A DNA stretch of 64,000 nt from Coriobacteriales bacterium (lineage in GTDB: Bacteria; Actinomycetota; Coriobacteriia; Coriobacteriales; QAMH01): NCBI GenBank assembly GCA_050943615.1, contig JBMNPN010000003.1, forward strand, positions 1,058-65,057. Reading direction: 5' to 3'. A program made the position numbers and the translations under genes. This document shows, piece after piece, positions 15,986 to 63,629 of the stretch. The notes under the pieces were generated by a model. The model was not told the DNA's origin. It saw only the letters and a program-made list of their open reading frames with translations, and ran no database searches. Numbering within the stretch: the stretch's first letter is position 1; every line of letters begins with the position of its first letter.

Positions 15986-15986
<1 letters not shown>
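15267..15986 (-). CDS. grpE: Nucleotide exchange factor GrpE
   Basis: Acidic N-terminus, then RLQAEWDNYRKRTAAERE...LLPVLDDLERAL...GYMMGDKVLRPAMV. The start shares 1 nt with the dnaK stop (TAATG). Confidence 0.9.
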
Positions 15987-18000
<2,014 letters not shown>

Positions 18001-18069
18001 CCTAAAACCTTTTCAGCAAACCGTTATCTTGCTGTCACTTGAGATTTTATGAGGAAGGAACGAGATGCA

Positions 18070-18495
18070 TTGAGCAGCGAGTACGCAAGGTCGCGGAATT
18101 AGAATCCGCGCAACGTATTTCGTCATCTGACCAGATTCACGGTCAGACGGCCCATAGCTGTGCGCGAGCTCGTGCGACTCGATTCCCATGCAACGTATTT
18201 CGTCATCTGACCAGATTCACGGTCAGATGCCCCGTGGCTTTGCGCGAATCCGAGATTTCTCAAACTCATGCAATGTATATCGTCATCTGACCGCGATTCT
18301 GGTCAGATGGCCCGTGGCGTTGTTCGAAGGCGAGGGACCGCGAGGTCCGCGCAACGCATAGCGTCATCTGACCGCCAATCTGGTCAGACGGCCCGTGGCT
18401 TTGCGCGAATCCGAGATTTCTCAAACTCATGCAATGTATATCGTCATCTGACCGCGATTCCGGTCAGACGGCTCGTGGCTTTGCACGGAAACGTC
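18070..18495 (+). repeat. Family A tandem repeat array 1 (5 units, 80-81 nt period)
   Basis: Units start at 18110, 18190, 18270, 18351 and 18431. Conserved module: GCAACGTATTTCGTCATCTGACC-N8-GGTCAGATGGCCCGTGGCTTTGCGCGAA. It contains a 9-bp hairpin, CATCTGACC/GGTCAGATG, with a variable 8-nt loop. Confidence 0.85.
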
Positions 18496-18519
18496 GGAGC
18501 GATATGCAGCTCTCAGCGT

Positions 18520-19098
18520 TTATTCCGTTGCATGAGCTGCACGCCAGGCGCGAATCTTTCGCGCTGTGGGACGGTAGACATCGCTGAACAGGTAGCTCAC
18601 AAGCGGCTTTACCAGCAGAAAGACGAGCGCATAAGCAATCGCCGCCGCTTTCGGGAGCATCACCAGATAGTCCGTAGGAAAGGCAGCCCACGACGAACCG
18701 CTCATCACGATGCCGAACGCCGTTCCGAAAACGCACATGATCGGCGCCATGATGCAGACGTTGATGAAGACGAAGAGCGCCTGGCTTGCGGCACCCGCAA
18801 AATAGGGAGTCACGAGATGCGCCTGCAGCCAGAAACTCAGCTTGTTGGCGAACAGGCTCCTGATGGCAAAGGCGATGGCAAACCAGATGGGAAGCGTCGC
18901 GAGCAATTTGAGAGCATGGGCAATCGGGCTTCCAACGACGATGACGTTGATGCTAAGAATCATCGCAACGGCGGTTACAAAGGCGAACAGCCCTTGAAAG
19001 ATCAGGCCTTCCCGTTTGCTGCTCGGCCCCGCAAACTGTCCGCTGAGCAGCTTGAAGTACTTGCGCAGCGCGCGTGAGAATAGTTTGAACAATTGCAT
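18520..19098 (-). CDS. Small polytopic membrane protein, unknown function (possibly DUF2798-like)
   Basis: Start moved to ATG 19098 (MQLFKLFSRALRKYF), with AAGGA upstream. About 4 hydrophobic segments. The family guess is weak. Confidence 0.5.
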   Translation of the reverse strand: MQLFKLFSRALRKYFKLLSGQFAGPSSKREGLIFQGLFAFVTAVAMILSINVIVVGSPIAHALKLLATLPIWFAIAFAIRSLFANKLSFWLQAHLVTPYFAGAASQALFVFINVCIMAPIMCVFGTAFGIVMSGSSWAAFPTDYLVMLPKAAAIAYALVFLLVKPLVSYLFSDVYRPTARKIRAWRAAHATE

Positions 19099-19539
19099 TT
19101 TGCACGTCCTTATCCATGTGCGAGAGGCAGCGGCGCCTTGGGCGGAGCGCATGCTCTCACACTTCAAAGACCCTGGATGCGCAGGTCTACGTATATAAGT
19201 GATTTTGGGAAATTCGATTTTCCGACGTAACGTCGAAAACAACGATGCCCGCCCCACTAAGGCCGCATCTGTTTTCCATTTTATACAAAGTGCAGAGCAT
19301 GTCTTACATAAATATTCGGTGAGCGGCCTGCCAGTAAATGAAAAATCTCTATACAAAGAATGTTTTCAGCAATACCTATAGCGTTGACCAGCGGCTTTGC
19401 TAATTTCGTCAACAGGTAGCCAATCGATGCATCAAAGATTTGCCAACGGCCTATTGTCATTGTGTTCTCATATCGTTATTTTCTATTCGTCGTTTGCGGG
19501 TCATCAGTGACCCATGCCCCCTACAGAGAGAGGACTACC

Positions 19540-24564: not shown

Positions 24565-26331
24565 ATGTCGTTTCTCACGCGTTCCGAGCTGTGCGCTTCG
24601 CCTTCTGCGAAAGCGCTCATCGAAAACAATGTCCCTTCGCGTCTGGCAGAAAAAGATGCGAGCCTGTTCGACTTCGATTCCGAGGCAGCAGAAACATCCG
24701 CCCATAGGCTCGGGTGGACGACACTTGCCACCAATCCACCGACCGACCCCTCTGAAATCGCAATCCTCGCCCAGCATGCGCGCGGCGAGAAACTCGACGC
24801 CGTCGTCCTGATCGGACAGGGCGGCTCTTCCATGGCAGCCCAGACGATCACCAAGCTGCGCAGCCTCGAGGTGACCGACGAGGTACCGTTCCGCACCATG
24901 GACTCGATGTCACCTGTCTACGTGAACCACATCCTGGGATCGTCCGATCCAGCGCACACCATCTACATCGTCTCGAGCAAGTCGGGAACGACGCTCGAGC
25001 CGACGCTTCTGTCCCACGTCGCCTGGAAATACGCCTGCGCGCACCTGGGAAGCGAGCACGCCGGCGGGCGCTTCATCGCCGTCACCGACCCGGGAACCGA
25101 GCTCGAGGCGGTCGCCCGCAAGAACGGGTGGCGCGCCATCGTGCACGGAGACCCAGATGTAGGCGGACGCTATTCCGCGCTCTCCGCCTTCGGCCTGCTG
25201 CCCATGGCCTGTGTCGGCGTCGACGTGGAAAAGACGCTCGAGGACTGCAAGCCAATGGAGCGCCTCTGCGCTTCTGATTCAAATGACAACCCCGCCATCT
25301 GGCTTGCGACCTTCCTCTACGACAACTGGAAGAGCGGACGCGACAAGTTCTCGTTGCTGATGCCGCCCACCAAGCGCGTCTTTGGTCTCTGGGTCGAGCA
25401 GCTCGTCGCCGAGTCACTCGGCAAGAACGGCAAGGGGATACTCCCCAATGTGGAAATCGACTCGGGAATTCTGGCAGATCCCCACACCGACCGCTGCATC
25501 ATCATCTGTAACATGGACAACGACCAGGCCTTCGAACATGCCCGCACCTGCATCCATCCCGACATCCCGACCTTCAGGCTCGACATCCCCGATTCGACGG
25601 CCATGGCCACTTACTTTCTGATCTGGGAATACGCCATCGCCTTCTGCGGCTGGCTCATGAAGGTCGACCCTTTCAATCAGCCCGACGTCGAGAGCACGAA
25701 GAAAGCCGCAAAGCAGATTCTCTCGAAGGGCAGCGCCTCCTTCCAGGTCCCCTTCGACGAGAAGGGTCGCCTGTCATACGAGGAGTTCGACTTGGTGGAC
25801 AACGAGGTGGCCGACCGTCTCTACGTGAGCACCGCGCTTCTCGATACCATGGCATCGCGCCCTGCGCGCATTGACATGAGCGTTGCCATGCGCGCTCTCT
25901 TCAACTCGATCAAACAAGGCGACTATTTCAGCCTCAACGCGTTTCTCCCCTTCCGTGGCGTCGGACGACGCGAAGCACTCGAACGCATCCGCCACCGTGT
26001 CGCCGAACGGCTCAAGACCTGCTCCTGCCTCGAGATTGGGCCCCGTTACCTGCACTCGACCGGTCAGCTGCACAAAGGCGGTCCGAACAACGGCGTCTTT
26101 CTGATCGTGAGCAGCACCGAGCTCTACGACATCAAGATCCCGCACCAGGACTTCACGCTCGGAGACGTCGAGTCTGCCCAGGCGCTCGGCGACTTCTCCG
26201 CTCTGGCGAGCCGTGGCAGGCGTGCCATCTACGTGCACCTGAAGGACAACGATTCGGAATATATCTCTGCGCTGGCAAACGATGCCTGCTCTGCGATTTC
26301 CGCCGCCTATGCCCTGCGCGTGCACCAGTAG
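24565..26331 (+). CDS. pgi: Glucose-6-phosphate isomerase family (SIS domains)
   Basis: 588 aa. Motifs LIGQGGSSMAAQ and SSKSGTTLEPT. GGAGAG lies upstream of the ATG. Longer than typical PGI. Confidence 0.7.
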   Translation: MSFLTRSELCASPSAKALIENNVPSRLAEKDASLFDFDSEAAETSAHRLGWTTLATNPPTDPSEIAILAQHARGEKLDAVVLIGQGGSSMAAQTITKLRSLEVTDEVPFRTMDSMSPVYVNHILGSSDPAHTIYIVSSKSGTTLEPTLLSHVAWKYACAHLGSEHAGGRFIAVTDPGTELEAVARKNGWRAIVHGDPDVGGRYSALSAFGLLPMACVGVDVEKTLEDCKPMERLCASDSNDNPAIWLATFLYDNWKSGRDKFSLLMPPTKRVFGLWVEQLVAESLGKNGKGILPNVEIDSGILADPHTDRCIIICNMDNDQAFEHARTCIHPDIPTFRLDIPDSTAMATYFLIWEYAIAFCGWLMKVDPFNQPDVESTKKAAKQILSKGSASFQVPFDEKGRLSYEEFDLVDNEVADRLYVSTALLDTMASRPARIDMSVAMRALFNSIKQGDYFSLNAFLPFRGVGRREALERIRHRVAERLKTCSCLEIGPRYLHSTGQLHKGGPNNGVFLIVSSTELYDIKIPHQDFTLGDVESAQALGDFSALASRGRRAIYVHLKDNDSEYISALANDACSAISAAYALRVHQ

Positions 26332-26339
26332 CGACTTCA

Positions 26340-26655
26340 GCTCGCGCAACGTATTGCGTCATCTGACCGCGTTTCTGGTCAGATGGCCCGTAGCTGTGCG
26401 CGAACTCGTACAACTCAATTCCCATGCAACGTATTTCGTCGTCTGACCGAAGATCTGGTCAGATGGCCCGTGGCTTTGCGCGAATCCGAGATTTTCCGAT
26501 CCCGCGCAACGTATTTGGCCATCTGACCGCGAATCTGGTCAGATGGCCCGTGGCTTTGCGCGAACTCGTACAACTCAATTCCCATGCAACGCATAGCGCC
26601 ATCTGACCGCGAATCCGGTCAGATGGCTCGCAGGCGTGCGCGGCATTTCCGCCAT
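26340..26655 (+). repeat. Family A tandem repeat array 2 (4 units, 80 nt period)
   Basis: Units start at 26346, 26426, 26506 and 26586, beginning 15 nt after the pgi stop. Same hairpin module and same orientation as array 1. Confidence 0.85.
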
Positions 26656-26809: not shown

Positions 26810-27433
26810 ATGCCGTCTGCCATATATATCGCTTATGCCGCTGCCGCGTTTGCAGGCGCCGCACTTGTCGCTCCCCAGCTTGCACGTCTGCTCCTTTCCC
26901 GACGCGAACAGCCCCTGTCCCCTATCAAGCCCCTCGCACGCCTTGCGCTTGCAGCCCTTTCAACTGCGGGCGCTTGCGGCATGCTCTGGGAACACGACGC
27001 TCTTGCAACCGCACTCCTACTCGCTGGCCTCATCATCATGGAAGCGCTCGTCATCTGCGATATACGCGCACGCATCTTGCCATGGGAGGGCTGCCTCATG
27101 CTTGGAGTCCTCGGCGTGCTCTTGCGCCTTCTCGATGGTGGCCTTCTCACCTCCATCGCCCTGGCAGCCCTCGTCTTTGCCGCGCTCTTCGGTTCGAGCG
27201 TCCTGGTCTCGCATGGGAAATCGCGTGCCCTCGGGTGGGGTGACCTGCGGCTCATCCCCGCACTCGTGCTCATAGGCGGACCTGCGGGCACCATCTGCGG
27301 CGGACTTGCCTGCGCAGTTGCGGCATGCGCTCATGCGCTCGTCTGTCTTGTCGCACAAAGGGGCTCTGCATCAGATGCCTTCCCCCTCGGGCCGAGCCTG
27401 CTCGTCTGGTTCCTGGTCGTCGCGCTCTGCTGA
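26810..27433 (+). CDS. A24-family prepilin peptidase-like membrane protease
   Basis: Two catalytic Asp contexts, VICDIRARILP and GWGDLRLIPAL. C-terminal FPLGPSL. Polytopic. Confidence 0.7.
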   Translation: MPSAIYIAYAAAAFAGAALVAPQLARLLLSRREQPLSPIKPLARLALAALSTAGACGMLWEHDALATALLLAGLIIMEALVICDIRARILPWEGCLMLGVLGVLLRLLDGGLLTSIALAALVFAALFGSSVLVSHGKSRALGWGDLRLIPALVLIGGPAGTICGGLACAVAACAHALVCLVAQRGSASDAFPLGPSLLVWFLVVALC

Positions 27434-36117: not shown

Positions 36118-36612
36118 GGTGTGGAGTTGACCGCTTGGGTCGCTTCGGTGCAGGTGACACATCGAAACCCGGGACTTGGTCGACCACCTGTGCCACCTCG
36201 ATGCAGCGTGCGCCGAAGCTCGGTAAGTGGTCGAAAGATAGTCGACCACCAGAACGACTTGGATGCAAATTCCGCATCGAGCCCCCTCACGTGGGCGGAT
36301 ACTCGCATCGAACCCAAGGACGTGGTCGACCACCAGGGGCGCTTCGATACACACCGCGATCCGAGACCTTCCACGCGCTCGCGCACTAAGGCCACTTGCG
36401 CGCAGAGTGCACGGAAGCCCTGTTCGTGTGCGCGCACCAGGGGCAGTTCCGCGCGAGAATCTGCGCACGAGCAGGAGTTCGGCACATTTCGGGCCCGATT
36501 CTTCGCAGAAGCCCCGCTCGTGTGCGCACACCAAGATGCCTTCTGCACGCCACGCGCAGAAGCCCGCTACGTGCGCGGCTGCTGAGAACGCTTCGGTACA
36601 GACCGCCGCGTA
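36118..36612 (+). repeat. Family B tandem repeat array 1 (~7 degenerate units of ~50-60 nt)
   Basis: Unit: GCATCGAAACCC-N5-GTGGTCGACCACC-AGG-GGC. Examples lie at 36159-36188 and 36305-36340. The distal units keep the frame but swap the palindromic core to GTGTGCGCGCACC (from 36427) or GTGTGCGCACACC (from 36520). Confidence 0.8.
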
Positions 36613-54189: not shown

Positions 54190-54412
54190 CTCAAGGAGAG
54201 CGCTCGACCACCTGAGGCACTTCGGCGCACGGCGCATCGAAACCCTCCAAGTGGTCGACCACCAGGGCCCTCTCGGCGCAATATCCGCATCGAACCCCGG
54301 TACGTGGGCGGATTTTCGCACCGAATTGCATCGAAACCCTTTATGTGGTCGACCACGAAAGCCACTTCGATGTTAGATGCGCCGAAAGCCGCTACGTGGT
54401 CGACTGGGAGTC
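54190..54412 (+). repeat. Family B tandem repeat array 2 (~5 units)
   Basis: Units include GCATCGAAACCCTCCAAGTGGTCGACCACCAGG (from 54233), GCATCGAACCCCGGTACGTGGGCGGAT (from 54287) and GCATCGAAACCCTTTATGTGGTCGACCAC (from 54328). Same orientation and same unit order as array 1. Confidence 0.8.
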
Positions 54413-56377: not shown

Positions 56378-56507
56378 GGCAGATGTCCTTTCGCACAGAT
56401 ACGAAAAAGTCGTGGACTCACAATACCACCGCAACGTCGGAACTCGCACTTTGCCATACGCACCCGTTCACCAGCGCGCGCCAAACGGATGCCAGCGAGC
56501 AGGTGCC

Positions 56508-56711
56508 GCATCCGTTGCGCCCCCGAGGGGCGGCGGGGCTGCGGATGTGCTCAGCGCTCCGCTCCCGTTCGGGAGGGTCCCGCCCGCCGCTGCGGAACTC
56601 GCGCACTTCGTGCGCTCAAACAGTCCTCGCAAGGGCGCGGGCGGGACCCTCCCGAGCAGCTCCGCGAAATCGCCCATCCGCAGCCCCGCCGCCCCTCGGG
56701 GGCTTGCGAGC
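56508..56711. repeat. Family C hairpin element, copy A (MITE-like or invertible)
   Basis: 29-bp terminal inverted repeats GCCCCCGAGGGGCGGCGGGGCTGCGGATG (56519-56547 and 56675-56703), a 127-bp core, TTGC on both sides (56515-56518, 56704-56707), and conserved outer flanks. Confidence 0.8.
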
Positions 56712-56722
56712 TCTCTAATAAG

Positions 56723-56914
56723 TCAGCTCGTCTTTCCGGAGCTCCTATCAGCAATTACTTTATATCGCATCTGGGGAAGCCGTGGAGCACCGCAGTTGGG
56801 GCAGCAATCGTCCGCATCGGTGAGTTCGGCGCCACATAGATAGCAATGCTTGTCATCACCCGGTTCAAATGGCAATTTGCACTTTCCGCACCTCGTACAG
56901 AACATGCAACCCAT
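56723..56914 (-). CDS. Possible small zinc-ribbon protein
   Basis: 63 aa with three CxxC pairs: CTRCGKC, CYLCG, CPNCG. GGGAGG sits 12-13 nt upstream, which is long spacing. No other support. Confidence 0.4.
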   Translation of the reverse strand: MGCMFCTRCGKCKLPFEPGDDKHCYLCGAELTDADDCCPNCGAPRLPQMRYKVIADRSSGKTS

Positions 56915-57035
56915 GCTGCATCCGACCTCCCTCGCACTGCAATAAAGCGCGCCTCAGCGCCCTGGAGTCCAAAGTCCCGGGGCGCTGATGTTCATACCTG
57001 CGCACTTTCGACAGGCTCACATTAAGCGACAGACA

Positions 57036-58382
57036 CTATTGCGCCGCGGATTGCTGTTGCTGCAGGCGCTTTCTTGCCACGCCTCGACGCGGCATCGTGA
57101 AGGCAATTATCGCAGCAATTGCCATGGTGATGCCGACAATCAGGAAGGAGTTGCCAACAATGCCCGTAGCATCGATTACCACGCCTGCAAGCCACGGACC
57201 TAGATAGCGACCGACGATATTGATCGTGCCAACAACGCCGGTGCCCGTCGCCCGAATATCGTCATCATAGTATTCGCCTGCGCAGGTCATGATGACCGTG
57301 ATGACACCCGTACACGCGGTATTGGCAGCAACGAAGAAGTACAGGATGCCGAGATTCATCTCCACGCCCGAGGTTAGATAGAAGTAGTAGCCGAATCCGA
57401 AAATCGCGTTGAGAGCTACCATGAAGGCAATCAGGCTCTTGCGCTCCACGCGGTCGGAGATCTGTCCCAAGATGAGCTCGGTAATGATGCAGCACACGCC
57501 GGCAATCGAGATGGAAAGCGAGGCCTGAGCTAGATCGAACCCGACTGCCTGCACGCTGGCGACATAATACTGGGTCGCAGCCATGTAGCCGATTTGATAG
57601 ATGATGTAGAAAATGCCGAAATGCCAGGTAATGGGCATCTTGAGCACGCGCTTGATTGCGCTCTGGCCGTTGCCCTTTGCAGGCTCGTCACCCTTCTCGG
57701 CAGCAATCGTCGGCTCAGGAGCGGCTTGCACTCCATCGGGAGCACCGTACGGCGCAAGACCAAGTTCCTCGGGTCCCTCTCGGAAAGTCAGCATAATGAG
57801 AAGCGCGATAAGCGCGTAGATGACACCGAAAACGATGTAGGACATGGCCCAGCCAAAACTCGCGATAATCATCGGCGCGACAATGCCGAGTACTAGCGCT
57901 GAAAAGTTAGCGCCAGGGGTGATGAGCGACATGCCGAAGCCACGCTTGTGCGGGGCAAACCAGCGGGAAACGATCTTCGGCAGAATCGCCATGAGCAGGC
58001 CAGCAGTGCCACAACCGCAGATTGCCCAGGTGACGACCGCCGGACCAAGACCGAGCGGTGCGAACAGACCGAAAAGAATAGCGCCTACTGCAGCAAGACC
58101 GCAGGCAGAGGTGATAGCCTTGCGAGTGCCAATCTTATCGGCGAGCATACCCCAGGCAAAGGAAAGGCCCGAGTAGAAAATCATGTAAACCGAAGTGATG
58201 AGCCCAACTTCAGCATAGCTCACTCCGAGGGACTGGCGGATGGATTCGAGCGAAATCGCTGGTAGGCGCTGAGCGCTCAATACGATGAACTGGGTCAGAA
58301 AACCACCAAGGCAGATGATAAAAGCATAGTGAAAACCATGCTTTTTCTTTTGCGGAGATACGTCTTCTACCGTTTGCAACAT
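57036..58382 (-). CDS. MFS transporter
   Basis: 448 aa, 12 TM. AAGGAGG lies 7 nt upstream of the ATG. MFS-type loop motif GMLADKIGTRK. Confidence 0.85.
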   Translation of the reverse strand: MLQTVEDVSPQKKKHGFHYAFIICLGGFLTQFIVLSAQRLPAISLESIRQSLGVSYAEVGLITSVYMIFYSGLSFAWGMLADKIGTRKAITSACGLAAVGAILFGLFAPLGLGPAVVTWAICGCGTAGLLMAILPKIVSRWFAPHKRGFGMSLITPGANFSALVLGIVAPMIIASFGWAMSYIVFGVIYALIALLIMLTFREGPEELGLAPYGAPDGVQAAPEPTIAAEKGDEPAKGNGQSAIKRVLKMPITWHFGIFYIIYQIGYMAATQYYVASVQAVGFDLAQASLSISIAGVCCIITELILGQISDRVERKSLIAFMVALNAIFGFGYYFYLTSGVEMNLGILYFFVAANTACTGVITVIMTCAGEYYDDDIRATGTGVVGTINIVGRYLGPWLAGVVIDATGIVGNSFLIVGITMAIAAIIAFTMPRRGVARKRLQQQQSAAQ

Positions 58383-58489
58383 GGGTGTTCCTCCTTATTT
58401 CTAATGATTTTTCGAACTTGAGAAATTGCTAGCTATCCTCGTGCCCAATAGACACGAGGCCCAAGCCAGCAGAGATTCCGACGGTGCTC

Positions 58490-58942
58490 TCAGACCATGC
58501 GCTTGACCAAGCGCAGCAACCTCTCTCGCCGTTGCTCGTTGCGTTCGAGCTCGTTGTGCTTCTTCTTGGCAAGTGCATCGGCATTGAATTGAGCTCGTGC
58601 CCGTGCCGCTTCTTCGCTCTGCTCGAGCTCTGCGGCAGCGCGCAAGCGTCCCTCATCACTGATGAGCTTTTCTGCACGATGTTTGTGCTCTATCGGAACA
58701 TAGATATCTACGCCATAGTTCTTGTCCTTGCTTTGCGGGAGTGCAAGGCAGGCAACCGGATGATTCATCTTTAGCGTTCCAAGGTCCTTGCCGAAAAGAG
58801 GAATGCCCGCTTCCCTGAACAGGTAGGCCATGCCGTCGTACTGCCATTTCATCTTGAAATTTGTCAGGTATGTCCATGTCATTTGCTCGAACTGTTCAAG
58901 ATCAACGACGGTTGTCCAGCCTTTCTTTTGCTGGGGAAGCAT
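58490..58942 (-). CDS. Hypothetical protein (small alpha/beta N-domain plus charged coiled-coil tail)
   Basis: 150 aa, SD-like GAGAGGAAA upstream. Follows the Fe-S subunit gene after a 29-nt gap. No recognised motif. Confidence 0.5.
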   Translation of the reverse strand: MLPQQKKGWTTVVDLEQFEQMTWTYLTNFKMKWQYDGMAYLFREAGIPLFGKDLGTLKMNHPVACLALPQSKDKNYGVDIYVPIEHKHRAEKLISDEGRLRAAAELEQSEEAARARAQFNADALAKKKHNELERNEQRRERLLRLVKRMV

Positions 58943-58971
58943 GGCATTTCCTCTCTTCGCATTTGAAGGTA

Positions 58972-59304
58972 TTACGGCATAAAGCAGGTGACCTTCGAAG
59001 CGCCCAGCTCGACCATCCGCTTTCCGAGCTCGTCGACGGGGAGAATCTCAATCACCTTTGCCAGGCAGTGCATTTCACATGGAGCGACCTTGCCGGCCTC
59101 GCGTCTACCTGCACATAAATCGCAAAGCCGGGAGGGAACAGGGACGTAGTCCCACTCCCACTGCCCTCCAAGCTTTTTGGGACCGATCTGCTGAACCTGG
59201 ATTCCCCATTCATCAGCAGGTAGTCCCTTTTCCTTGAGACAGGAGACCTCACAAGTTTCGCAGCCTGTGCACAGGCCATAGTTGATGAGCATTCCGTATT
59301 CCAT
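58972..59304 (-). CDS. 2[4Fe-4S] electron-transfer small subunit
   Basis: Start ATG 59304 (MEYGMLINYG), with AGGAGG 6 nt upstream and 10 nt after the large-subunit stop. CTGCETCEVSC plus CDLCAGRREAGKVAPCEMHC. Confidence 0.8.
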   Translation of the reverse strand: MEYGMLINYGLCTGCETCEVSCLKEKGLPADEWGIQVQQIGPKKLGGQWEWDYVPVPSRLCDLCAGRREAGKVAPCEMHCLAKVIEILPVDELGKRMVELGASKVTCFMP

Positions 59305-59314
59305 GACTTCCCTC

Positions 59315-61603
59315 CTAACCAAGGCTCTCGACTTTGCGGATCTTGCAGATGCCGTTCTTGTACGGCGCGCCATATCCCGTGACCGAAACACTCTCGTGCG
59401 GAATCAGGTTGTTCGCATTTGCCTTCCAGACTCCGTAGAGGTTGGGTGCCTCACCGTCCTGCTCGGGGAACCACCAGGCATGCTCGACATGGATGAACTT
59501 GTCGTTAACCTCTTCGGTGAGATGCGCTTTCTGCGTCATCTTTCCAAGCGGGCTTTCCACCTCGACCCAATCGCCTTCTTCGATGCCATACTTCTCGGCA
59601 GTAACAGGATTAATCGTCACGAGTGGCCAGGGGTGCAGGCGTCGCATCGTCGTGCCCTTCTGACGGTGCTCGGAATGGAACATGGAGATATGACGTCCGC
59701 CAGTGGTGTAGTACAGCGGATACTCCTCCGCCAGATCAGGTCGCGAGATATGGCTGTACTCAGGCTCTTCGTAATAAGGAACCGGCTCCTCGCCAAAGCC
59801 CGCCAGAACTGGGGACCACAGCTCGATCTGACCGGACGTAGTGTCGAACCCAGGCTTTCCATCTGGACGGAGCAGCCCCTTCTCGTATTTTCGATACTCA
59901 TAGCCCGACATCTTTGCCGGAACCGCCTTGACATCGTCGAGACCATAGCCATACGTGTCCTTGAGCATCTTGTCGAAGAACTTGTCGGGCGTATCCATGT
60001 CCTTCCAGAGTTCGGGACGCATGCGCTTGCCCATATCGATGAGGATCTCAAGGTCGGACTTGGTGTTGGGATTGTGCACTGCCTTGTTCATGGCACCGAT
60101 GAAGTGCTGGTTGCGACCATAGTTGGGCGTCACGAGTCCCTCATGTTCAGCAAAAGTCGAAAGCGGCAAAACCAAGTCGGCCAACCCCATGATCGTCGGC
60201 GTCATGAAGATGTCCTGGACGACGGTGAACTCGAGGTCTTTCATGGCCTCGTACCATCGTTTGGGCTGGTCGGCCATGCATGCGAGCGGATTGCTTCCGA
60301 TAATCCAGCACATGCGGAGCTTGTAATATTCGGGACGGTCTGCCCATTTCCCCTCGAGCCAGTTCAGAAGCGTGTCACCCTGGACGCCGCCCATTGCTGC
60401 GCCGGCATTGAACAGAGCATACTTGCCATCGAGATCTACGATGTGCTTTGCTGCCATCTCTGGGGAAATGGTGTCGGACATGTCATAGCGCCACTGGCCG
60501 ATGAAGCTCGTCGGTTTGGTGATGGTCACACCGCCCGGCACGTCGATGTATCCGCAAATAGCGACAAGTGCGAGGAAGCATTGAGCTGCCTGAGTCGAGG
60601 CTTTGGACTGGTCAAGTGCTACGCCCCATGTAGCAGTAGAGGGAGCATTCGTCGCAAACGCACGTGCGGCACCAACCAGCTGCTCGGGATCGACCCAAGA
60701 CACCTCCTGGACCTTCTCCGGAGTCCACTCTTCAACAGCTTCGGCAAGTTGATCGAATCCGTAGCACCACTTGTCGACAAACTCGTGATTGTAGAGGTCT
60801 TCTTTGATAACGACGCGCAGAAGCCCCATGCCCACCGCCGCATCGGTGCCAGGCCTGAGTTGCAGATGATACTCTGCATGTGCGCCAAGCCAGGTCAAAC
60901 GCGGGTCAATGGTGATGATCTTTGAGCCGCGCTTCATAAGATCGATAATGCTATGGCCAAAAAACCCGTCTGGACTTGAATAAAGCGGATCCTTGCCCCA
61001 TACGATAATGTACTTGGGCGCCTCCCAACCAGGATGGTCGTAGCGGTCTTCCCAATACTGCGCCCAGTCGATCTCGGGAACCCCAGCACCGAGCAGGTAG
61101 TTGGTAATCGTAGCGCGCGGACCATAGCACGCCTCGCCGGAAAATGCATAGGTGGATGCACCGTTACACGTGTTGCAGACGGCAGGACCATACACGGGGG
61201 CATACAACGTCGACTCACGCCCTGTACCAGTCAGGGTAAAGATAGTCTCCGCACCCCACTTGTCCCAGATTTCGCGAATCTTTTGCTCGAGAAGGTCGTA
61301 TGCCTCGTCCCAACTGATCTTTACCCACGCATCTTGCCCGCGTTTATCGCGGTCACGCTTCATCGGACTTGTCAAACGCTCGGGACTGTACATGATCTCA
61401 TCAAGCGCCAGACAGCGGGGGCACACGCGACCGTTGGTCACGGGATTATCGGGATCCCCTTCTACCTTGATGAGCTTGTTGTCCTTGACGTACAGAATGA
61501 GACCACATCCAACGGGGTGGTCCCCCGGCGGCGACCAGGCGCAAGTGCGCACTTTCATCACGCCATCCTCTTCGGTGACGTAGGGCTTTATTGCCTCAGC
61601 CAT
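59315..61603 (-). CDS. Cytoplasmic molybdopterin (bis-MGD) oxidoreductase, DMSO-reductase superfamily, substrate unknown
   Basis: 762 aa. AGGAGGAGG lies upstream. No twin-arginine signal (N-terminus MAEAIKPYVTEEDG). MopB-like body (ITIDPRLTWLGAHAEYHLQLRPGTDAA, IGSNPL). C-terminal beta-barrel (ITINPVTAEKYGIEEGDWVEVES). Confidence 0.88.
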   Translation of the reverse strand: MAEAIKPYVTEEDGVMKVRTCAWSPPGDHPVGCGLILYVKDNKLIKVEGDPDNPVTNGRVCPRCLALDEIMYSPERLTSPMKRDRDKRGQDAWVKISWDEAYDLLEQKIREIWDKWGAETIFTLTGTGRESTLYAPVYGPAVCNTCNGASTYAFSGEACYGPRATITNYLLGAGVPEIDWAQYWEDRYDHPGWEAPKYIIVWGKDPLYSSPDGFFGHSIIDLMKRGSKIITIDPRLTWLGAHAEYHLQLRPGTDAAVGMGLLRVVIKEDLYNHEFVDKWCYGFDQLAEAVEEWTPEKVQEVSWVDPEQLVGAARAFATNAPSTATWGVALDQSKASTQAAQCFLALVAICGYIDVPGGVTITKPTSFIGQWRYDMSDTISPEMAAKHIVDLDGKYALFNAGAAMGGVQGDTLLNWLEGKWADRPEYYKLRMCWIIGSNPLACMADQPKRWYEAMKDLEFTVVQDIFMTPTIMGLADLVLPLSTFAEHEGLVTPNYGRNQHFIGAMNKAVHNPNTKSDLEILIDMGKRMRPELWKDMDTPDKFFDKMLKDTYGYGLDDVKAVPAKMSGYEYRKYEKGLLRPDGKPGFDTTSGQIELWSPVLAGFGEEPVPYYEEPEYSHISRPDLAEEYPLYYTTGGRHISMFHSEHRQKGTTMRRLHPWPLVTINPVTAEKYGIEEGDWVEVESPLGKMTQKAHLTEEVNDKFIHVEHAWWFPEQDGEAPNLYGVWKANANNLIPHESVSVTGYGAPYKNGICKIRKVESLG

Positions 61604-61784
61604 CTTGATGTCCTCCTCCTTCTCTTTCGCTGCACGAACCTTGCATGCCGCTTACATGCAGGCAGTCAGCGGACATGCGATTAACGTGAAAATATCGAGA
61701 GAAGGAGATACGACAAAGCCACCCCAGGGGTTGTTTTTCACAAACCGAGGGTGCTGATTCGGGTTGTCTTTTCGCGTCAGAGGC

Positions 61785-61799
61785 AACCCTCAGAGGGTT
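61785..61799. promoter_or_regulatory. Perfect palindrome AACCCTC-A-GAGGGTT between the LuxR gene and the molybdoenzyme operon
   Basis: 7-1-7 inverted repeat. More GGGTT/AACC half-sites occur at 61730-61770. Candidate regulator-binding site. Confidence 0.3.
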
Positions 61800-61823
61800 A
61801 TATACAAGTCTGACCTGCGCTTA

Positions 61824-63314
61824 TCAAGAGATGCCCCTGAGAGCGTCATCGATAAGGTCAAGAAGCTCCTCGCGTGAATGAACCTGAAGTTTGGCATAGA
61901 TTCTTCGCACGTGCCCCTTGGACGTGTTATAGGAGATGCCAAGTTCCTCAGCGATAAAAGACGTGCTTCTGCCACGTCCCAGATATGCGAGAACTTCGCG
62001 CTCGCGCGCAGTGAGCCCCGCGCGGCCGGCAAGATTGTCATATGCGAGCTTGCGCCGCTCTTCAACGTTTGTTTCTGGTCTGGATTCGGCTTGAAGCGTC
62101 TCTTCGCGGAACGTCTTTTCGAGGGCAGATTCAATAGTACGTTCATCGAGGACAAGGAACGACATCATAAGCACGAGAACTACCAGAACAATGCTGATCG
62201 TGCTCATAAACGAGAACAGCCCTGGAACGAGCGACGATGCGCAGACGACAATGAGCTGTCCAGCAGTGGTGCCAAGGGCAGATGCACCGCGACCAAAACC
62301 GAAAACACATACAGGACTCATCGTCGTCTGGCCGGCGATATTGGCAAACAGGCACCAGAGCGTGAGCACGAAAATATTGTAAGCACAGTTCACGATGATA
62401 GCCTGCAGGGAGAGAAACTCGGGACCGAGCAAAGGTGCGAGCAGCAGGCCAAGAGCAGCAACGATAATCACGGGATAATAGATTTTACTCAGGTCAAAGC
62501 GCTTCACGCTGTTTACTAGGGCAAAGACGACCACGAGAGCCGCTGAAACAATCAGGGTCACAAACACGCTCATCGCCGCCTGAGCACGCACGACTTCAAT
62601 CTCGCCTTGCAACGTGAACGTCCCCTTTGTAATCCCAACAGCAAGTGAGAAAACGGCGACAAAAAGCACACACCGCAGAAAGAACCCACGAGGAAGAAGC
62701 TTGATGGGGATCGCGTCGGTCTTGTCTATTTCACGGCTATCGACAGGACGCAGGAGCGCAAGCAACATAGCGCAGATGAGAAACAAGGAAATTACAAGAA
62801 CCGAAAGCCACCGATCGAGGCCAACGCAGACAAAGTAAAGCAGATTGGCGAGCATGCCCGAAGCAAAGGTTGTGAAGAAGACGCTCATGGAGTCAAGTGA
62901 GCTATACATATAGCCTATGCGCAGGCAGAGAAACGAAGTACCGACGCCGGTACCAATACCGAGCAGGGCAAAGGTCAAGCCATTTATCGGAAGCCCAGAA
63001 CCACCCATGAGAAAGAAAGTGCACGCAGCAGCAAGCACTGACATGGCAGGCACAAGCGGGCCGCGGCTAATGGTAGGTTCGACGCGCCGCGAAAAAGCAC
63101 CGCAGAGAATGAGGACAATGGTAAGCGGAACACCCGAATACAGATAGAGCAGGTTATTGGCATTTCCCTGCAGCAGTTCCTGCGAAGACGGAACAACTGC
63201 ACTTCCGCCCATCATGAAGAGAATCCAAGCGCTGTAGAAGCCGAGGCTGCAATATTTGAGCCCCGGCCATTGGCTATCGATTCGCTCAAGACTCCTCTTC
63301 CACAGCTCAGCCAC
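61824..63314 (-). CDS. Membrane-embedded LuxR-family transcription regulator
   Basis: GTG start 63314. About 400 aa polytopic domain. C-terminal HTH LTAREREVLAYLGRGRSTSFIAEELGISYNTSKGHVRRIYAKLQV. Confidence 0.8.
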   Translation of the reverse strand: MAELWKRSLERIDSQWPGLKYCSLGFYSAWILFMMGGSAVVPSSQELLQGNANNLLYLYSGVPLTIVLILCGAFSRRVEPTISRGPLVPAMSVLAAACTFFLMGGSGLPINGLTFALLGIGTGVGTSFLCLRIGYMYSSLDSMSVFFTTFASGMLANLLYFVCVGLDRWLSVLVISLFLICAMLLALLRPVDSREIDKTDAIPIKLLPRGFFLRCVLFVAVFSLAVGITKGTFTLQGEIEVVRAQAAMSVFVTLIVSAALVVVFALVNSVKRFDLSKIYYPVIIVAALGLLLAPLLGPEFLSLQAIIVNCAYNIFVLTLWCLFANIAGQTTMSPVCVFGFGRGASALGTTAGQLIVVCASSLVPGLFSFMSTISIVLVVLVLMMSFLVLDERTIESALEKTFREETLQAESRPETNVEERRKLAYDNLAGRAGLTAREREVLAYLGRGRSTSFIAEELGISYNTSKGHVRRIYAKLQVHSREELLDLIDDALRGIS

Positions 63315-63425
63315 GTTGTCTCATACCTCTTCTCTTGTAAGGAATTGCAGCGTCTCGCCTTTCGAAAGTGCAGGTCATTTATATCAATTCGATTGTAGTG
63401 GGTATTCAACCGTTGAAATAGTACA

Positions 63426-63629
63426 GCATCCGTTTGTGCCCCGAGGGGCGGCGGGGATGCGGATGGGCGATTTCGCGGAGCTGCTCGGAAGGGCCCCGCC
63501 CGCGTCCTTGCGAGGACTGTTTGAGCGCACGAAGTGCGCGAGTTCCGCAGCGGCGGGCGGGACCCTCCCGAGCGGGAGCGGAGCGCTGAGCACATCCGCA
63601 TCCCCGCCGCCCCTCGGGGGCTTGCGAGC
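63426..63629. repeat. Family C hairpin element, copy B (core inverted relative to copy A)
   Basis: Terminal inverted repeats at 63438-63465 and 63593-63621. The 127-bp core (63466-63592) equals the reverse complement of the copy A core with 4 mismatches. The outer flanks have the same orientation as in copy A. Confidence 0.8.

What the first reader, a model, noticed from the sequence alone, without database searches (positions are those of the whole stretch)
18070..18495. Family A: 80-nt-period tandem array of a conserved hairpin module with mosaic tails
Five units have a strict 80/80/81/80-nt period. Each unit carries a 9-bp stem, CATCTGACC/GGTCAGATG. The stem is conserved while the 8-nt loop varies freely (AGATTCAC, GCGATTCT, GCCAATCT, GCGATTCC). 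That pattern indicates selection on structure.

The ~27-nt tails fall into about three interchangeable types:
- CTCGTRCRACTCRATTCCCAT
- TCCGAGATTTCTCAAACTCAT
- GGCGAGGGACCGCGAGGTCCGC

The array sits directly upstream of the dnaK promoter region. The units are too long and too similar overall to be CRISPR repeat/spacer pairs, and no transposase is nearby.
Basis: seen in the sequence. Interest (0 to 1): 0.55.

Follow-up and report, generated by a model that had tools for sequence, protein, structure and literature searches.

The report
Clustered palindromic intergenic repeats, Coriobacteriales
The 80-base tandem hairpin array upstream of dnaK is real and has a second copy 8 kb away, but it looks like a species-specific family of small non-coding palindromic repeats of the REP/NIME kind rather than a new type of functional RNA or a dnaK regulator.

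Summary
There are five head-to-tail units at 18107-18490 with period 80/80/81/80. Each has the arms CATCTGACC / GGTCAGA(T/C)G around an 8-nt centre. A second array of the same family, four units with period 80, lies at 26343-26642, 11 nt after the stop codon of pgi.

Each unit is a ~60-nt two-tier palindrome followed by a ~20-nt linker of three recurring types.

The inner arms are constrained as sequence: 2 of 18 columns vary, against 16 of 31 in the rest of the core. There is no covariation, so selection on structure is not demonstrated. The centre is not free: seven loops are 0-3 mismatches from GCGAATCT, and two are its reverse complement (a flipped loop).

Both arrays have the same orientation but sit in oppositely transcribed contexts, each just downstream of a stop codon.

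The arrays are present in strains of about 95% identity and absent at the orthologous sites in four related species. Nothing matched in Rfam, phage, plasmid, viral or metagenome collections. No transposase, recombinase or cas gene was found in the window.

Best reading: a lineage-specific REP/NIME-like intergenic repeat, expanded by tandem block duplication, with at most a generic 3'-UTR hairpin effect. Genome-wide copy number could not be measured. Interest is modest.

The parts
18107..18490 (+). Array 1: five head-to-tail units (A1-A5), period 80/80/81/80. Two-tier palindromic modules at 18107-18166, 18187-18246, 18267-18326, 18348-18407 and 18428-18487.
   Evidence: TRF; the repeat finder; alignment; nhmmer; covariance-model search
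18124..18149 (.). Inner hairpin of A1 (CATCTGACC AGATTCAC GGTCAGACG). The equivalent hairpins of A2-A5 are at 18204-18229, 18284-18309, 18365-18390 and 18445-18470. The A1 and A2 loops are the reverse complement of the majority loop.
   Evidence: folds
18167..18186 (+). Linker type a. The other linkers of array 1 are 18247-18266 (type b), 18327-18347 (type c, which contains the mini-hairpin GGACC-GCGA-GGTCC at 18335-18348) and 18408-18427 (type b).
   Evidence: alignment; sequence
26343..26642 (+). Array 2 of the same family: four units (B1-B4), period 80. Modules at 26343-26402, 26423-26482, 26503-26562 and 26583-26642. Hairpins at 26360-26385, 26440-26465, 26520-26545 and 26600-26625. Linkers at 26403-26422 (a), 26483-26502 (b') and 26563-26582 (a).
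   Evidence: TRF; sequence
18520..19098 (-). 192-aa membrane protein gene with no family match. Its stop codon is 32 nt from unit A5, so array 1 lies in its 3' flank. The gene is absent from relatives L111 and L118.
   Evidence: gene table
17968..17996 (-). dnaK promoter-like site (TTGACA, 17 nt, CATTAT), 110 nt from the array. Homology with relative L111 runs up to window position 18037.
15986..17923 (-). dnaK, the first gene of dnaK-grpE-dnaJ-hspR-clpB.
24565..26331 (+). pgi (glucose-6-phosphate isomerase). Array 2 starts 11 nt after its stop codon.
26810..27433 (+). Prepilin-peptidase-like gene downstream of array 2. The pgi-peptidase adjacency is conserved in relatives L118 and L120, which have no array.

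Best explanation
Family A is a lineage-specific family of small non-coding palindromic intergenic repeats in an uncultured Coriobacteriales bacterium. It is of the same general kind as REP/BIME, neisserial NIME arrays and pneumococcal BOX elements.

Anatomy. Each unit is a ~60-nt two-tier palindrome:
- an outer stem (C)GCGCAA/TTGCGC(G);
- a roughly 8-10 x 8-10 nt asymmetric internal loop;
- an inner stem of 9-13 bp built on the invariant arms CATCTGACC/GGTCAGATG;
- a 6-8-nt centre;
- a ~20-nt linker.

Shown:
- Two arrays of 5 and 4 units lie in the same orientation 8 kb apart.
- Each starts 11-32 nt after a stop codon, but in oppositely transcribed contexts.
- The arms are constrained at the sequence level, while the centre and the linker drift.
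- The arrays are absent from the orthologous sites of related species and present in strains of about 95% identity.

Inferred:
- A founder block of at least 3 units was copied from one intergenic site to the other.
- The arrays then grew by unequal crossing-over or replication slippage of one- and two-unit blocks.
- The arms are kept identical because they are the recognition site of a DNA-processing protein encoded elsewhere (a transposase or recombinase acting on the hairpin or inverted repeat), and/or because the two arms correct each other.
- The loop flip in A1/A2 is the footprint of such arm-to-arm exchange.
- When transcribed as the 3' end of the upstream gene, the string of stable hairpins acts as a generic exonuclease block or partial terminator, as shown for E. 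coli REPs. For array 1 this would incidentally insulate the dnaK promoter from read-through.
- It is not a dnaK-specific regulator.
For: Statistical reality: 9 sites against 0.01 expected.

Two arrays, all nine units in one orientation: nhmmer scores 60-80 bits on the + strand against 30 bits or less on the - strand; the covariance model agrees.

Structure: a two-tier fold is predicted for most units on both strands, with free energies of -17 to -39 kcal/mol and z-scores of -1.5 to -7.1. ssDNA hairpins fold at -6 to -14 kcal/mol.

Conservation profile, as mean pairwise difference:
- arms 2.5-5.6%;
- outer stem 16%;
- internal loops 25%;
- centre 51%;
- linker 58%.
Variable columns are 2 of 18 in the arms against 16 of 31 in the rest of the core (Fisher p = 0.006).

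Block duplications:
- 18221-18340 against 18382-18501, 88%;
- B1 against B3, 91%;
- 222 nt of array 1 against array 2 in register, 83%.

Position: no intrinsic terminator or + strand promoter is predicted around the arrays. dnaK -35/-10 lies at 17996-17968.

Distribution:
- Absent at both syntenic sites in L111, and absent in L118, L120 and L125.
- The orthologous outer units are present in strains from SRR19849517, SRR11702762 and ERZ21942150, and every contig breaks at the hairpin.

What it is not: no coding potential (stops in all frames; no protein-space hits) and no Rfam family.

Comparison from the literature:
- REPs act as 3'UTR terminator/stabilisers (bioRxiv 10.64898/2026.03.23.713779).
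- CGTC-tagged REPs have 8-9-bp stems beginning A-T, T-A (PMC3733652).
- NIME arrays are a short inverted repeat with a variable 8-nt centre, separated by recurring spacers (PMC1797815).
Against: - Only nine copies at two neighbouring loci are visible in about 72 kb of this genome. High copy number and genome-wide dispersal, which define REP-like families, could not be tested.
- No partner protein (RAYT, IS110-type or tyrosine recombinase) was found in the window.
- The units are head-to-tail, whereas REP/BIME and CGTC elements are mostly inverted dimers.
- No expression data exist, so the 3'-UTR effect is pure inference.
- The same element strand (+) folds better as RNA in both arrays, although array 1 is presumably transcribed from the - strand. 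This argues against local RNA-level optimisation.
Confidence: 0.58

Rival explanations
1. The inner inverted repeat is a working DNA site: a recombinase or transposase target, or a protein-binding site. On this reading the arrays are NIME-like recombination substrates that promote exchange or insertion of neighbouring DNA, and the hairpin-forming ability is secondary.
For: The arms are invariant in sequence while the 8-nt centre varies. This is the layout of dRS3 (ATTCCC-N8-GGGAAT) and of lox/FRT-type core sites (PMC1797815). There is no compensatory variation. Array 1 abuts a two-gene insertion that is absent in relatives, and the dnaK-upstream locus is variable among relatives, carrying Wadjet JetD in L125. 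Element orientation is independent of transcription.
Against: No recombinase, integrase or phage gene lies in the 64-kb window. The site is absent from viral, phage and plasmid collections. Array 2 sits in a conserved gene adjacency (pgi-peptidase), not at a breakpoint. There are no target-site duplications or flank homologies.
Confidence: 0.17
2. The units are a dedicated structured RNA, either a cis-regulatory 3'-UTR or leader element or an array of small RNAs, and selection acts on the fold.
For: Folds are stable and better than shuffles (whole array z = -8.5). Both arrays start 11-32 nt after a stop codon. The only variable arm columns are the two partners of one base pair, and the ortholog of B1 in a 95%-identity strain has that pair changed from A-T to G-C.
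Against: There is no covariation among the nine copies: at the variable pair the combinations are A-T 5, A.C 3 and G.U 1, which is independent assortment. Orientation relative to transcription differs between the two arrays. There is no Rfam match, and no promoter or T-run terminator per unit. The element is absent from related species that keep the same genes.
Confidence: 0.12
3. It is a neutral minisatellite. A local tandem duplication happened to contain a palindrome and was copied once to a nearby intergenic region. It is not a dispersed or mobile family and has no function.
For: Only two arrays, 8 kb apart, are seen in about 72 kb. The arrays are collinear over 222 nt. Nothing similar turned up in any public collection searched.
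Against: Units are 70-91% identical, so they are old, yet the arms are almost invariant. That needs constraint or homogenisation. Every short-read contig from other strains breaks exactly at the hairpin. The same genome carries at least two more hairpin repeat families, which is typical of genomes with active small-repeat dynamics.
Confidence: 0.1
4. It is a heat-shock operator array controlling dnaK (HspR/HAIR-like or HrcA/CIRCE-like), or a degenerate CRISPR or type III antitoxin array.
For: It lies close to the dnaK promoter. Its 9-N8-9 inverted repeat has the same layout as CIRCE (9-N9-9).
Against: The arms match neither CIRCE (0 hits) nor HAIR (hits at chance level). The array lies 110 nt or more upstream of the -35 and is missing in relatives with the same operon. 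An identical array follows pgi. The linkers recur, so they are not spacers. There is no cas or toxN-like gene. An 80-nt unit is twice the size of type III antitoxin repeats (the last point is from my own knowledge of ToxI-type repeats).
Confidence: 0.02

Closest known systems
Neisserial intergenic mosaic elements (NIME: dRS3 inverted repeats separated by RS elements), as described in PMC1797815
   Same: Intergenic arrays in which a short inverted repeat with conserved arms and a variable 8-nt centre recurs in direct orientation. The repeats are separated by a limited repertoire of recurring spacer types. The arrays are dynamic and lineage-specific.
   Different: The arm sequence is unrelated (CATCTGACC against ATTCCC) and longer (9 bp against 6 bp). 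Here the spacing is fixed at 80 nt, and 34 of the 54 nt between hairpins are conserved, so the unit is one ~60-nt palindrome rather than an inverted repeat plus more than 100 unrelated RS families. The organism belongs to a different phylum. No phage or IS110-type recombinase is known to target the site.
CGTC-tagged REP superfamily (Di Nocera et al. 2013, PMC3733652)
   Same: CGTC lies immediately 5' of the stem in 7 of 9 units. The stem is 8-9 bp and begins with A-T, T-A (ATCTGACC). The elements are extragenic and mostly downstream of coding regions.
   Different: The loop is 6-8 nt rather than 4-5 nt. There is no CCA tail (GGCC here). The last three bases of the tag (GTC) can pair with the 3' side here, so the tag is not unpaired. 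Units are head-to-tail rather than head-to-head dimers. Copy number is unknown.
E. coli REP/BIME elements
   Same: Extragenic palindromes clustered with specific linker motifs (mosaic), located at 3' ends of genes. The expected effect as a 3'UTR stabiliser or partial terminator is the same (bioRxiv 10.64898/2026.03.23.713779).
   Different: BIMEs alternate REP orientation, whereas here all units are direct. There is no GTAG tag, no RAYT gene in view, and the unit is longer.
Pneumococcal BOX elements (boxA-boxB(n)-boxC), PMC3049150
   Same: Modular small repeats with tandemly reiterated internal modules and extensive predicted secondary structure. They are species-restricted and interpreted as largely parasitic, with side effects on co-transcribed genes.
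   Different: There is no sequence similarity and there are no distinct terminal A/C modules. Unlike in BOX elements, the hairpin arms are invariant.
MIRU-type minisatellites of Mycobacterium (from my own knowledge)
   Same: Intergenic tandem repeats of 50-100 nt in an actinobacterial genome.
   Different: MIRUs are oriented with the operon, are not built around a palindrome, and carry short ORFs coupled to the flanking genes. Here the period is not a multiple of 3, all frames carry stops, and orientation is independent of transcription.

Membership tests
REP (RAYT-associated, GTAG type) / BIME | 20-40-nt imperfect palindrome located outside genes | tested here: met
   The inner hairpin spans 26-32 nt. 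Both arrays are intergenic.
REP (RAYT-associated, GTAG type) / BIME | Unpaired GTAG tetranucleotide at one end | tested here: not met
   There is no GTAG next to either arm. The 5' flank is CGTC/CGCC/GGCC and the 3' flank is GGCC.
REP (RAYT-associated, GTAG type) / BIME | High copy number, typically more than 100 per genome, dispersed | not testable with these tools
   Only about 72 kb of this genome was reachable, and it holds 9 copies at 2 loci.
REP (RAYT-associated, GTAG type) / BIME | Associated RAYT (Y1 transposase) gene flanked by REPs | tested here: inconclusive
   None is present in the 64-kb window. The rest of the genome was not seen.
REP (RAYT-associated, GTAG type) / BIME | Clusters with alternating (inverted) REP orientation | tested here: not met
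   All nine units are head-to-tail on the + strand.
CGTC-tagged REPs (PMC3733652) | Terminal CGTC (or TGTC/CCTC) tag 5' of the stem | tested here: inconclusive
   CGTC precedes ATCTGACC in 7 of 9 units and is CGCC or GGCC in the other two. However, the last three bases of the tag (GTC) can pair with the 3' side, so the tag is not clearly unpaired.
CGTC-tagged REPs (PMC3733652) | Stem of 8-9 bp starting with complementary A-T residues; loop of 4-5 nt; CCA tail; mostly head-to-head dimers | tested here: not met
   The stem criterion is met (ATCTGACC). The loop is 6-8 nt, the tail is GGCC, and the arrangement is head-to-tail.
NIME arrays (PMC1797815) | dRS3 inverted repeat ATTCCC-N8-GGGAAT | tested here: not met
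   The arms are CATCTGACC/GGTCAGATG. The layout is the same but the sequence is different.
NIME arrays (PMC1797815) | Arrays of the inverted repeat separated by many families of 19-214-bp RS spacers | tested here: inconclusive
   Recurring linker types a, b and c are present. However, spacing is fixed and most of the inter-hairpin DNA is one conserved sequence.
NIME arrays (PMC1797815) | The inverted repeat is the integration target of a phage-encoded recombinase | not testable with these tools
   The site is absent from the viral and phage collections. This does not test the unsampled phages of this host.
CRISPR array | 23-47-nt repeats, unique spacers of similar length, cas genes or a leader | tested here: not met
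   The repeat is about 60 nt. The ~20-nt linkers recur within and between arrays. There are no cas genes in the window.
Any Rfam family | Covariance-model score at or above the gathering threshold | tested here: not met
   Only three tRNAs reach the gathering threshold in the window. In the array, the best hits with E-value up to 10 are snoR14 at E = 9.
Integron attC site | R''/R' core sites RYYYAAC ... GTTRRRY with conserved AAC/GTT, cassettes between sites, intI nearby | tested here: not met
   The 5' GCAAC resembles R''. The 3' partner reads TTTGCGC, TGTGCGC or CGTGCGC, and only A3 (GTTGTTC) has a GTT at that place, so GTT is not conserved. There are no cassettes and no integrase.
Heat-shock operators (HAIR, CIRCE) | CTTGAGT-N7-ACTCAAG or TTAGCACTC-N9-GAGTGCTAA near the promoter | tested here: not met
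   CIRCE gives 0 matches. HAIR gives 2 matches with 3 mismatches against 2.0 expected, and neither is in a unit.

The most novel reading that the evidence does not exclude
The invariant 9-bp arms with a variable 8-nt centre are the core site of a still unidentified site-specific recombinase or hairpin-recognising transposase in this Coriobacteriales lineage. [quoted passage not shown] This would explain sequence-level rather than structure-level conservation, orientation independent of transcription, and the variable gene content next to array 1.
Probability: 0.15. Interest if true: 0.6.

Novelty: new member of a known kind. Interest (0 to 1): 0.3.

Why it matters
If the reading is right, this is one more species-restricted family of small palindromic intergenic repeats, here in a poorly sampled gut-type actinobacterial lineage.

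Its practical consequences:
- It breaks short-read assemblies. Every Logan and ENA contig from related strains ends at the hairpin.
- It could serve as a strain-typing (VNTR-like) marker.
- It probably shapes the 3' ends of the upstream transcripts.

It should not be annotated as a dnaK regulatory element or as a CRISPR array.

The more interesting possibility is that the invariant arms are a recombinase or transposase site organised in NIME-like arrays. That would extend a repeat architecture known from Neisseria to another phylum and point to an undiscovered partner enzyme. It needs the complete genome to test.

Tried and rejected
**Searches that found nothing or only noise**
- Genome-collection scan with the bare hairpin pattern of 16 specified bases. 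The pattern was too loose. blastn shows no homology to the window.
- Two metagenome scans with stricter patterns, one covering the 3' half and one the 5' half: zero hits.
- Viral scans: zero hits, plus one chance coding hit.
- Plasmid and phage blastn: no match.
- Translating the arrays and searching protein space for ORFs miscalled through other copies: no hits.
- nhmmer and covariance-model searches of the window, 8 kb of extra sequence and three related loci: no further or diverged copies.

**Look-ups that added little**
- Extending the sequence at the right end of the window returned only a short contig lying inside the window.

**Sequence analyses with negative results**
- Covariation counting on the nine copies: uninformative or negative.
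- Search for target-site duplications or shared flanks: none. The 20-nt direct repeat 26296/26645 reported is weak and was judged to be chance.

**Alternative identities considered and rejected**
- CRISPR, integron attC, HAIR/CIRCE operators and Rfam families: rejected on the tests listed in the membership table.
- Type III antitoxin arrays, LhrC-like sRNA arrays and MIRU-type minisatellites: rejected on unit size, the lack of a promoter or T-run terminator per unit, stops in all frames and orientation independent of transcription.
- Assembly artefact: rejected, because the array is identical in three independent assemblies.

Full report
**1. Observation**

The sequence at 18107-18490 is a head-to-tail array of five units.
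- Tandem Repeats Finder gives period 80, 4.7 copies and score 369.
- The repeat finder gives five 58-nt copies spaced 80, 80, 81 and 80 nt.
- Each unit carries CATCTGACC-N8-GGTCAGA(T/C)G.
- That pattern occurs at nine places in the 64-kb window against 0.01 expected from dinucleotide shuffles. No solo or degenerate copies appear even with 3 mismatches or a variable gap.

Four of the nine sites form a second array of the same family at 26343-26642, with period 80.

The array is not an assembly artefact.
- Three independent JGI metagenome assemblies carry it identically.
- Contigs from other samples stop inside its outermost units.

**2. Anatomy**

Aligning the nine units and folding them shows that the conserved module is about 60 nt, not just the hairpin. 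It consists of:
- an outer stem (C)GCGCAA/TTGCGC(G);
- an asymmetric internal loop, whose 5' side is AT-rich (GTATTTC-like, 42% G+C) and whose 3' side is GC-rich (CCCGTGGC-like, 71% G+C);
- an inner stem of 9 bp that extends to 11-13 bp in some units;
- a centre of 6-8 nt.

A 20-23-nt linker follows. It occurs as type a (A1, B1, B3), type b (A2, A4, B2) and type c (A3). Types a and b look like diverged versions of one sequence.

Predicted stabilities:
- RNA folds are -17 to -39 kcal/mol, with z-scores of -1.5 to -7.1.
- The + strand of the element folds better in both arrays.
- ssDNA hairpins are -6 to -14 kcal/mol.
- The whole array as RNA has z = -8.5.

All frames carry stops, because TGA lies inside the arm, and 80 is not a multiple of 3. 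The units are therefore non-coding.

**3. What is constrained**

Units are only 70-91% identical overall. Mean pairwise difference by segment:

| Segment | Mean pairwise difference |
|---|---|
| Inner arms | 2.5-5.6% |
| Outer stem | 16% |
| Internal loops | 25% |
| Centre | 51% |
| Linker | 58% |

Two of 18 arm columns vary, against 16 of 31 other core columns (Fisher p = 0.006). The arms are therefore held constant.

They are held constant as sequence, not merely as a pairing.
- Pair counting finds no compensatory change in the inner stem among the nine copies, and one cell in the outer stem. No measure exceeds the shuffles.
- The only variable arm columns are the two partners of one pair. 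Their states (A-T 5, A.C 3, G.U 1) assort independently.
- Between strains the same pair changes again. Ortholog B1 is G-C in the strain of about 95% identity. Ortholog A5 is A-T in three other strains, where the window has the mismatch. So it is a tolerated or mutable position.
- The single A-T to G-C double change is suggestive (my rough estimate, not a computed test, is p of about 0.03). It is equally explained by arm-to-arm correction or by conversion from other units.

The centre is not free. Seven loops are 0-3 mismatches from GCGAATCT. A1 and A2 carry AGATTCAC, which is its reverse complement with one change. This is a flipped loop of the kind produced by exchange between inverted arms.

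**4. Context**

Both arrays have the same orientation.

Array 1:
- It lies 32 nt downstream of the stop of a minus-strand 192-aa membrane-protein gene.
- It lies 110 nt upstream of the dnaK -35 (TTGACA at 17996-17991, CATTAT at 17973-17968).

Array 2:
- It starts 11 nt after the stop of the plus-strand pgi gene.
- It ends 167 nt before a prepilin-peptidase-like gene.

Each array thus sits at the 3' end of a gene, but in opposite orientation relative to transcription. No intrinsic terminator is predicted in either intergenic region, and no promoter-like site lies within or beside either array.

The window encodes housekeeping, transport and respiratory genes typical of Coriobacteriia. No transposase, recombinase, RAYT or cas gene was found (gene tables; Pfam; ORFs). 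The source is an NCBI MAG named 'Coriobacteriales bacterium'.

**5. Distribution**

| Locus | Relation to the window | Result |
|---|---|---|
| L111 (GCA_965336985.1) | GlmU 77%, DnaK 92% identical | Same gene order. 87 bp after pgi and 297 bp before dnaK, with no hairpin. Homology with the window's dnaK promoter region ends at window position 18037, just before the array. |
| L118 | GlmU 74% | No array and no tandem repeat within 10 kb either side. |
| L120 | GlmU 73% | No array and no tandem repeat within 10 kb either side. |
| L125 | DnaK 91% | No annotated gap for an array upstream of dnaK: a Wadjet JetD gene ends 228 bp upstream of it. The DNA of this locus was not scanned. |

Strains at about 95% nucleotide identity carry the orthologous outermost units of both arrays. 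These are L112, L122, L123 and L124, from three further samples.

Public collections gave nothing:
- two metagenome scans;
- viral contigs;
- plasmids and phages;
- protein space, searched with array translations;
- Rfam.

My one genome-collection scan used too loose a pattern and was wasted on chance hits and an unrelated REP family. Genome-wide copy number in this organism therefore remains unknown. This is the main gap.

**6. History of the arrays**

- Array 1 and array 2 are collinear over 222 nt at 83% identity without gaps: A1-A2-A3 against B1-B2-B3.
- Within array 1, a block spanning the A2-A3 junction matches the corresponding block across A4-A5, 161 nt downstream, at 88% over 120 nt.
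- B1 and B3 are 91% identical.

The simplest history has two steps. A block of several units was copied between the two intergenic sites. The arrays then grew by unequal exchange or slippage in register, which also explains the strict period.

**7. Comparison with known systems**

- *NIME arrays of Neisseria.* The layout is closest to these: a short inverted repeat with conserved arms and a variable 8-nt centre (dRS3), repeated in arrays and separated by recurring spacer families (PMC1797815). The arm sequence, the fixed spacing, the largely conserved inter-hairpin DNA and the host phylum all differ.
- *CGTC-tagged REPs.* In 7 of 9 units the tetranucleotide CGTC precedes an 8-bp stem beginning A-T, T-A, as in this superfamily (PMC3733652). 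Loop length, tail and dimer arrangement do not fit.
- *Classical REP/BIME.* Membership fails on the GTAG tag and on alternating orientation. It cannot be tested for copy number or RAYT association.
- *Function.* The best documented role for such elements is a context-dependent 3'UTR terminator/stabiliser (bioRxiv 10.64898/2026.03.23.713779). BOX elements offer the precedent of species-restricted, largely parasitic modular repeats with side effects on co-transcribed genes (PMC3049150).
- *Rejected on tested features.* CRISPR, attC, HAIR/CIRCE, type III antitoxin arrays, sRNA gene arrays and MIRUs were rejected.

**8. Verdict**

This is a real feature, extended here to two arrays and a ~60-nt unit. 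It is best explained as a lineage-specific REP/NIME-like palindromic intergenic repeat (confidence about 0.58).

The constraint is on arm sequence, which points to a DNA-level recognition or homogenisation process. The association with dnaK is incidental.

Novelty: a new family of a known kind. Interest: about 0.3. A 15% chance remains that the arms are the site of an unidentified recombinase or transposase organised in NIME-like arrays, which would be more interesting.

Noticed in passing
window 36159-36463 and 54234-54382: A second, unrelated family of tandem hairpin repeats. Units are about 47-55 nt, of the form GCATCGAAACCC..GTGGTCGACCACC..GGGC..TTCGATGC. It sits in two intergenic regions, one of them next to a tRNA gene.
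   Followed up: partly
window 56503-56550 / 63421-63468 and 56557-56664 / 63476-63583; L114 13568-13681: A third repeat family: a 48-nt GC-rich palindrome plus a ~110-nt repeat, about 80% identical between copies. One copy lies outside the window. Logan contig L113 spans window positions 56689-63487, so its ends lie close to these repeats.
   Followed up: partly
L125 773-1954; L111 10705-11001; L118 13315-13614; window 18520-19460: The region upstream of dnaK is a variable locus among related Coriobacteriales. The ferredoxin gene lies directly upstream in L111 and L118. A Wadjet JetD gene is there in L125. In the window there is a 59-aa gene, a 192-aa membrane-protein gene and array 1.
   Followed up: partly
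L001, L003, L009, L027, L028, L034, L040, L052, L053, L056, L071, L083, L088, L096-L098, L100 (MAG CBFICI01, 'Pseudomonadales bacterium'): A high-copy, clustered REP family with consensus CCAGCATCTGACCCCTGACGGGGTCAGACACTT, found by accident because it shares CATCTGACC...GGTCAGA. It is not homologous to the window element.
   Followed up: partly
window 18335-18348: Linker type c, which occurs only in unit A3, contains its own mini-hairpin GGACC-GCGA-GGTCC with a GNRA-type loop on the + strand.
   Followed up: no
window 18069-18089: ATTGAGCAGCGAGTACGCAAG matches the HspR operator consensus (HAIR) with 3 mismatches, at the junction between the dnaK promoter region and array 1. The number of such matches in the window is at chance level.
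   Followed up: yes
window 18247-18266 and 18408-18427, minus strand: In the whole-array fold of the minus-strand RNA, linker type b forms its own G.U-rich hairpin, GAGUUUGAGA-AAUC-UCGGAUUC. This hairpin would not form on the + strand. It may be chance.
   Followed up: no
L118 4504-5357: A HigB-like toxin / HTH antitoxin pair and an HTH_17 gene are inserted between the FAD-dependent oxidoreductase gene and the prepilin peptidase gene in a relative. They are absent from the window.
   Followed up: no
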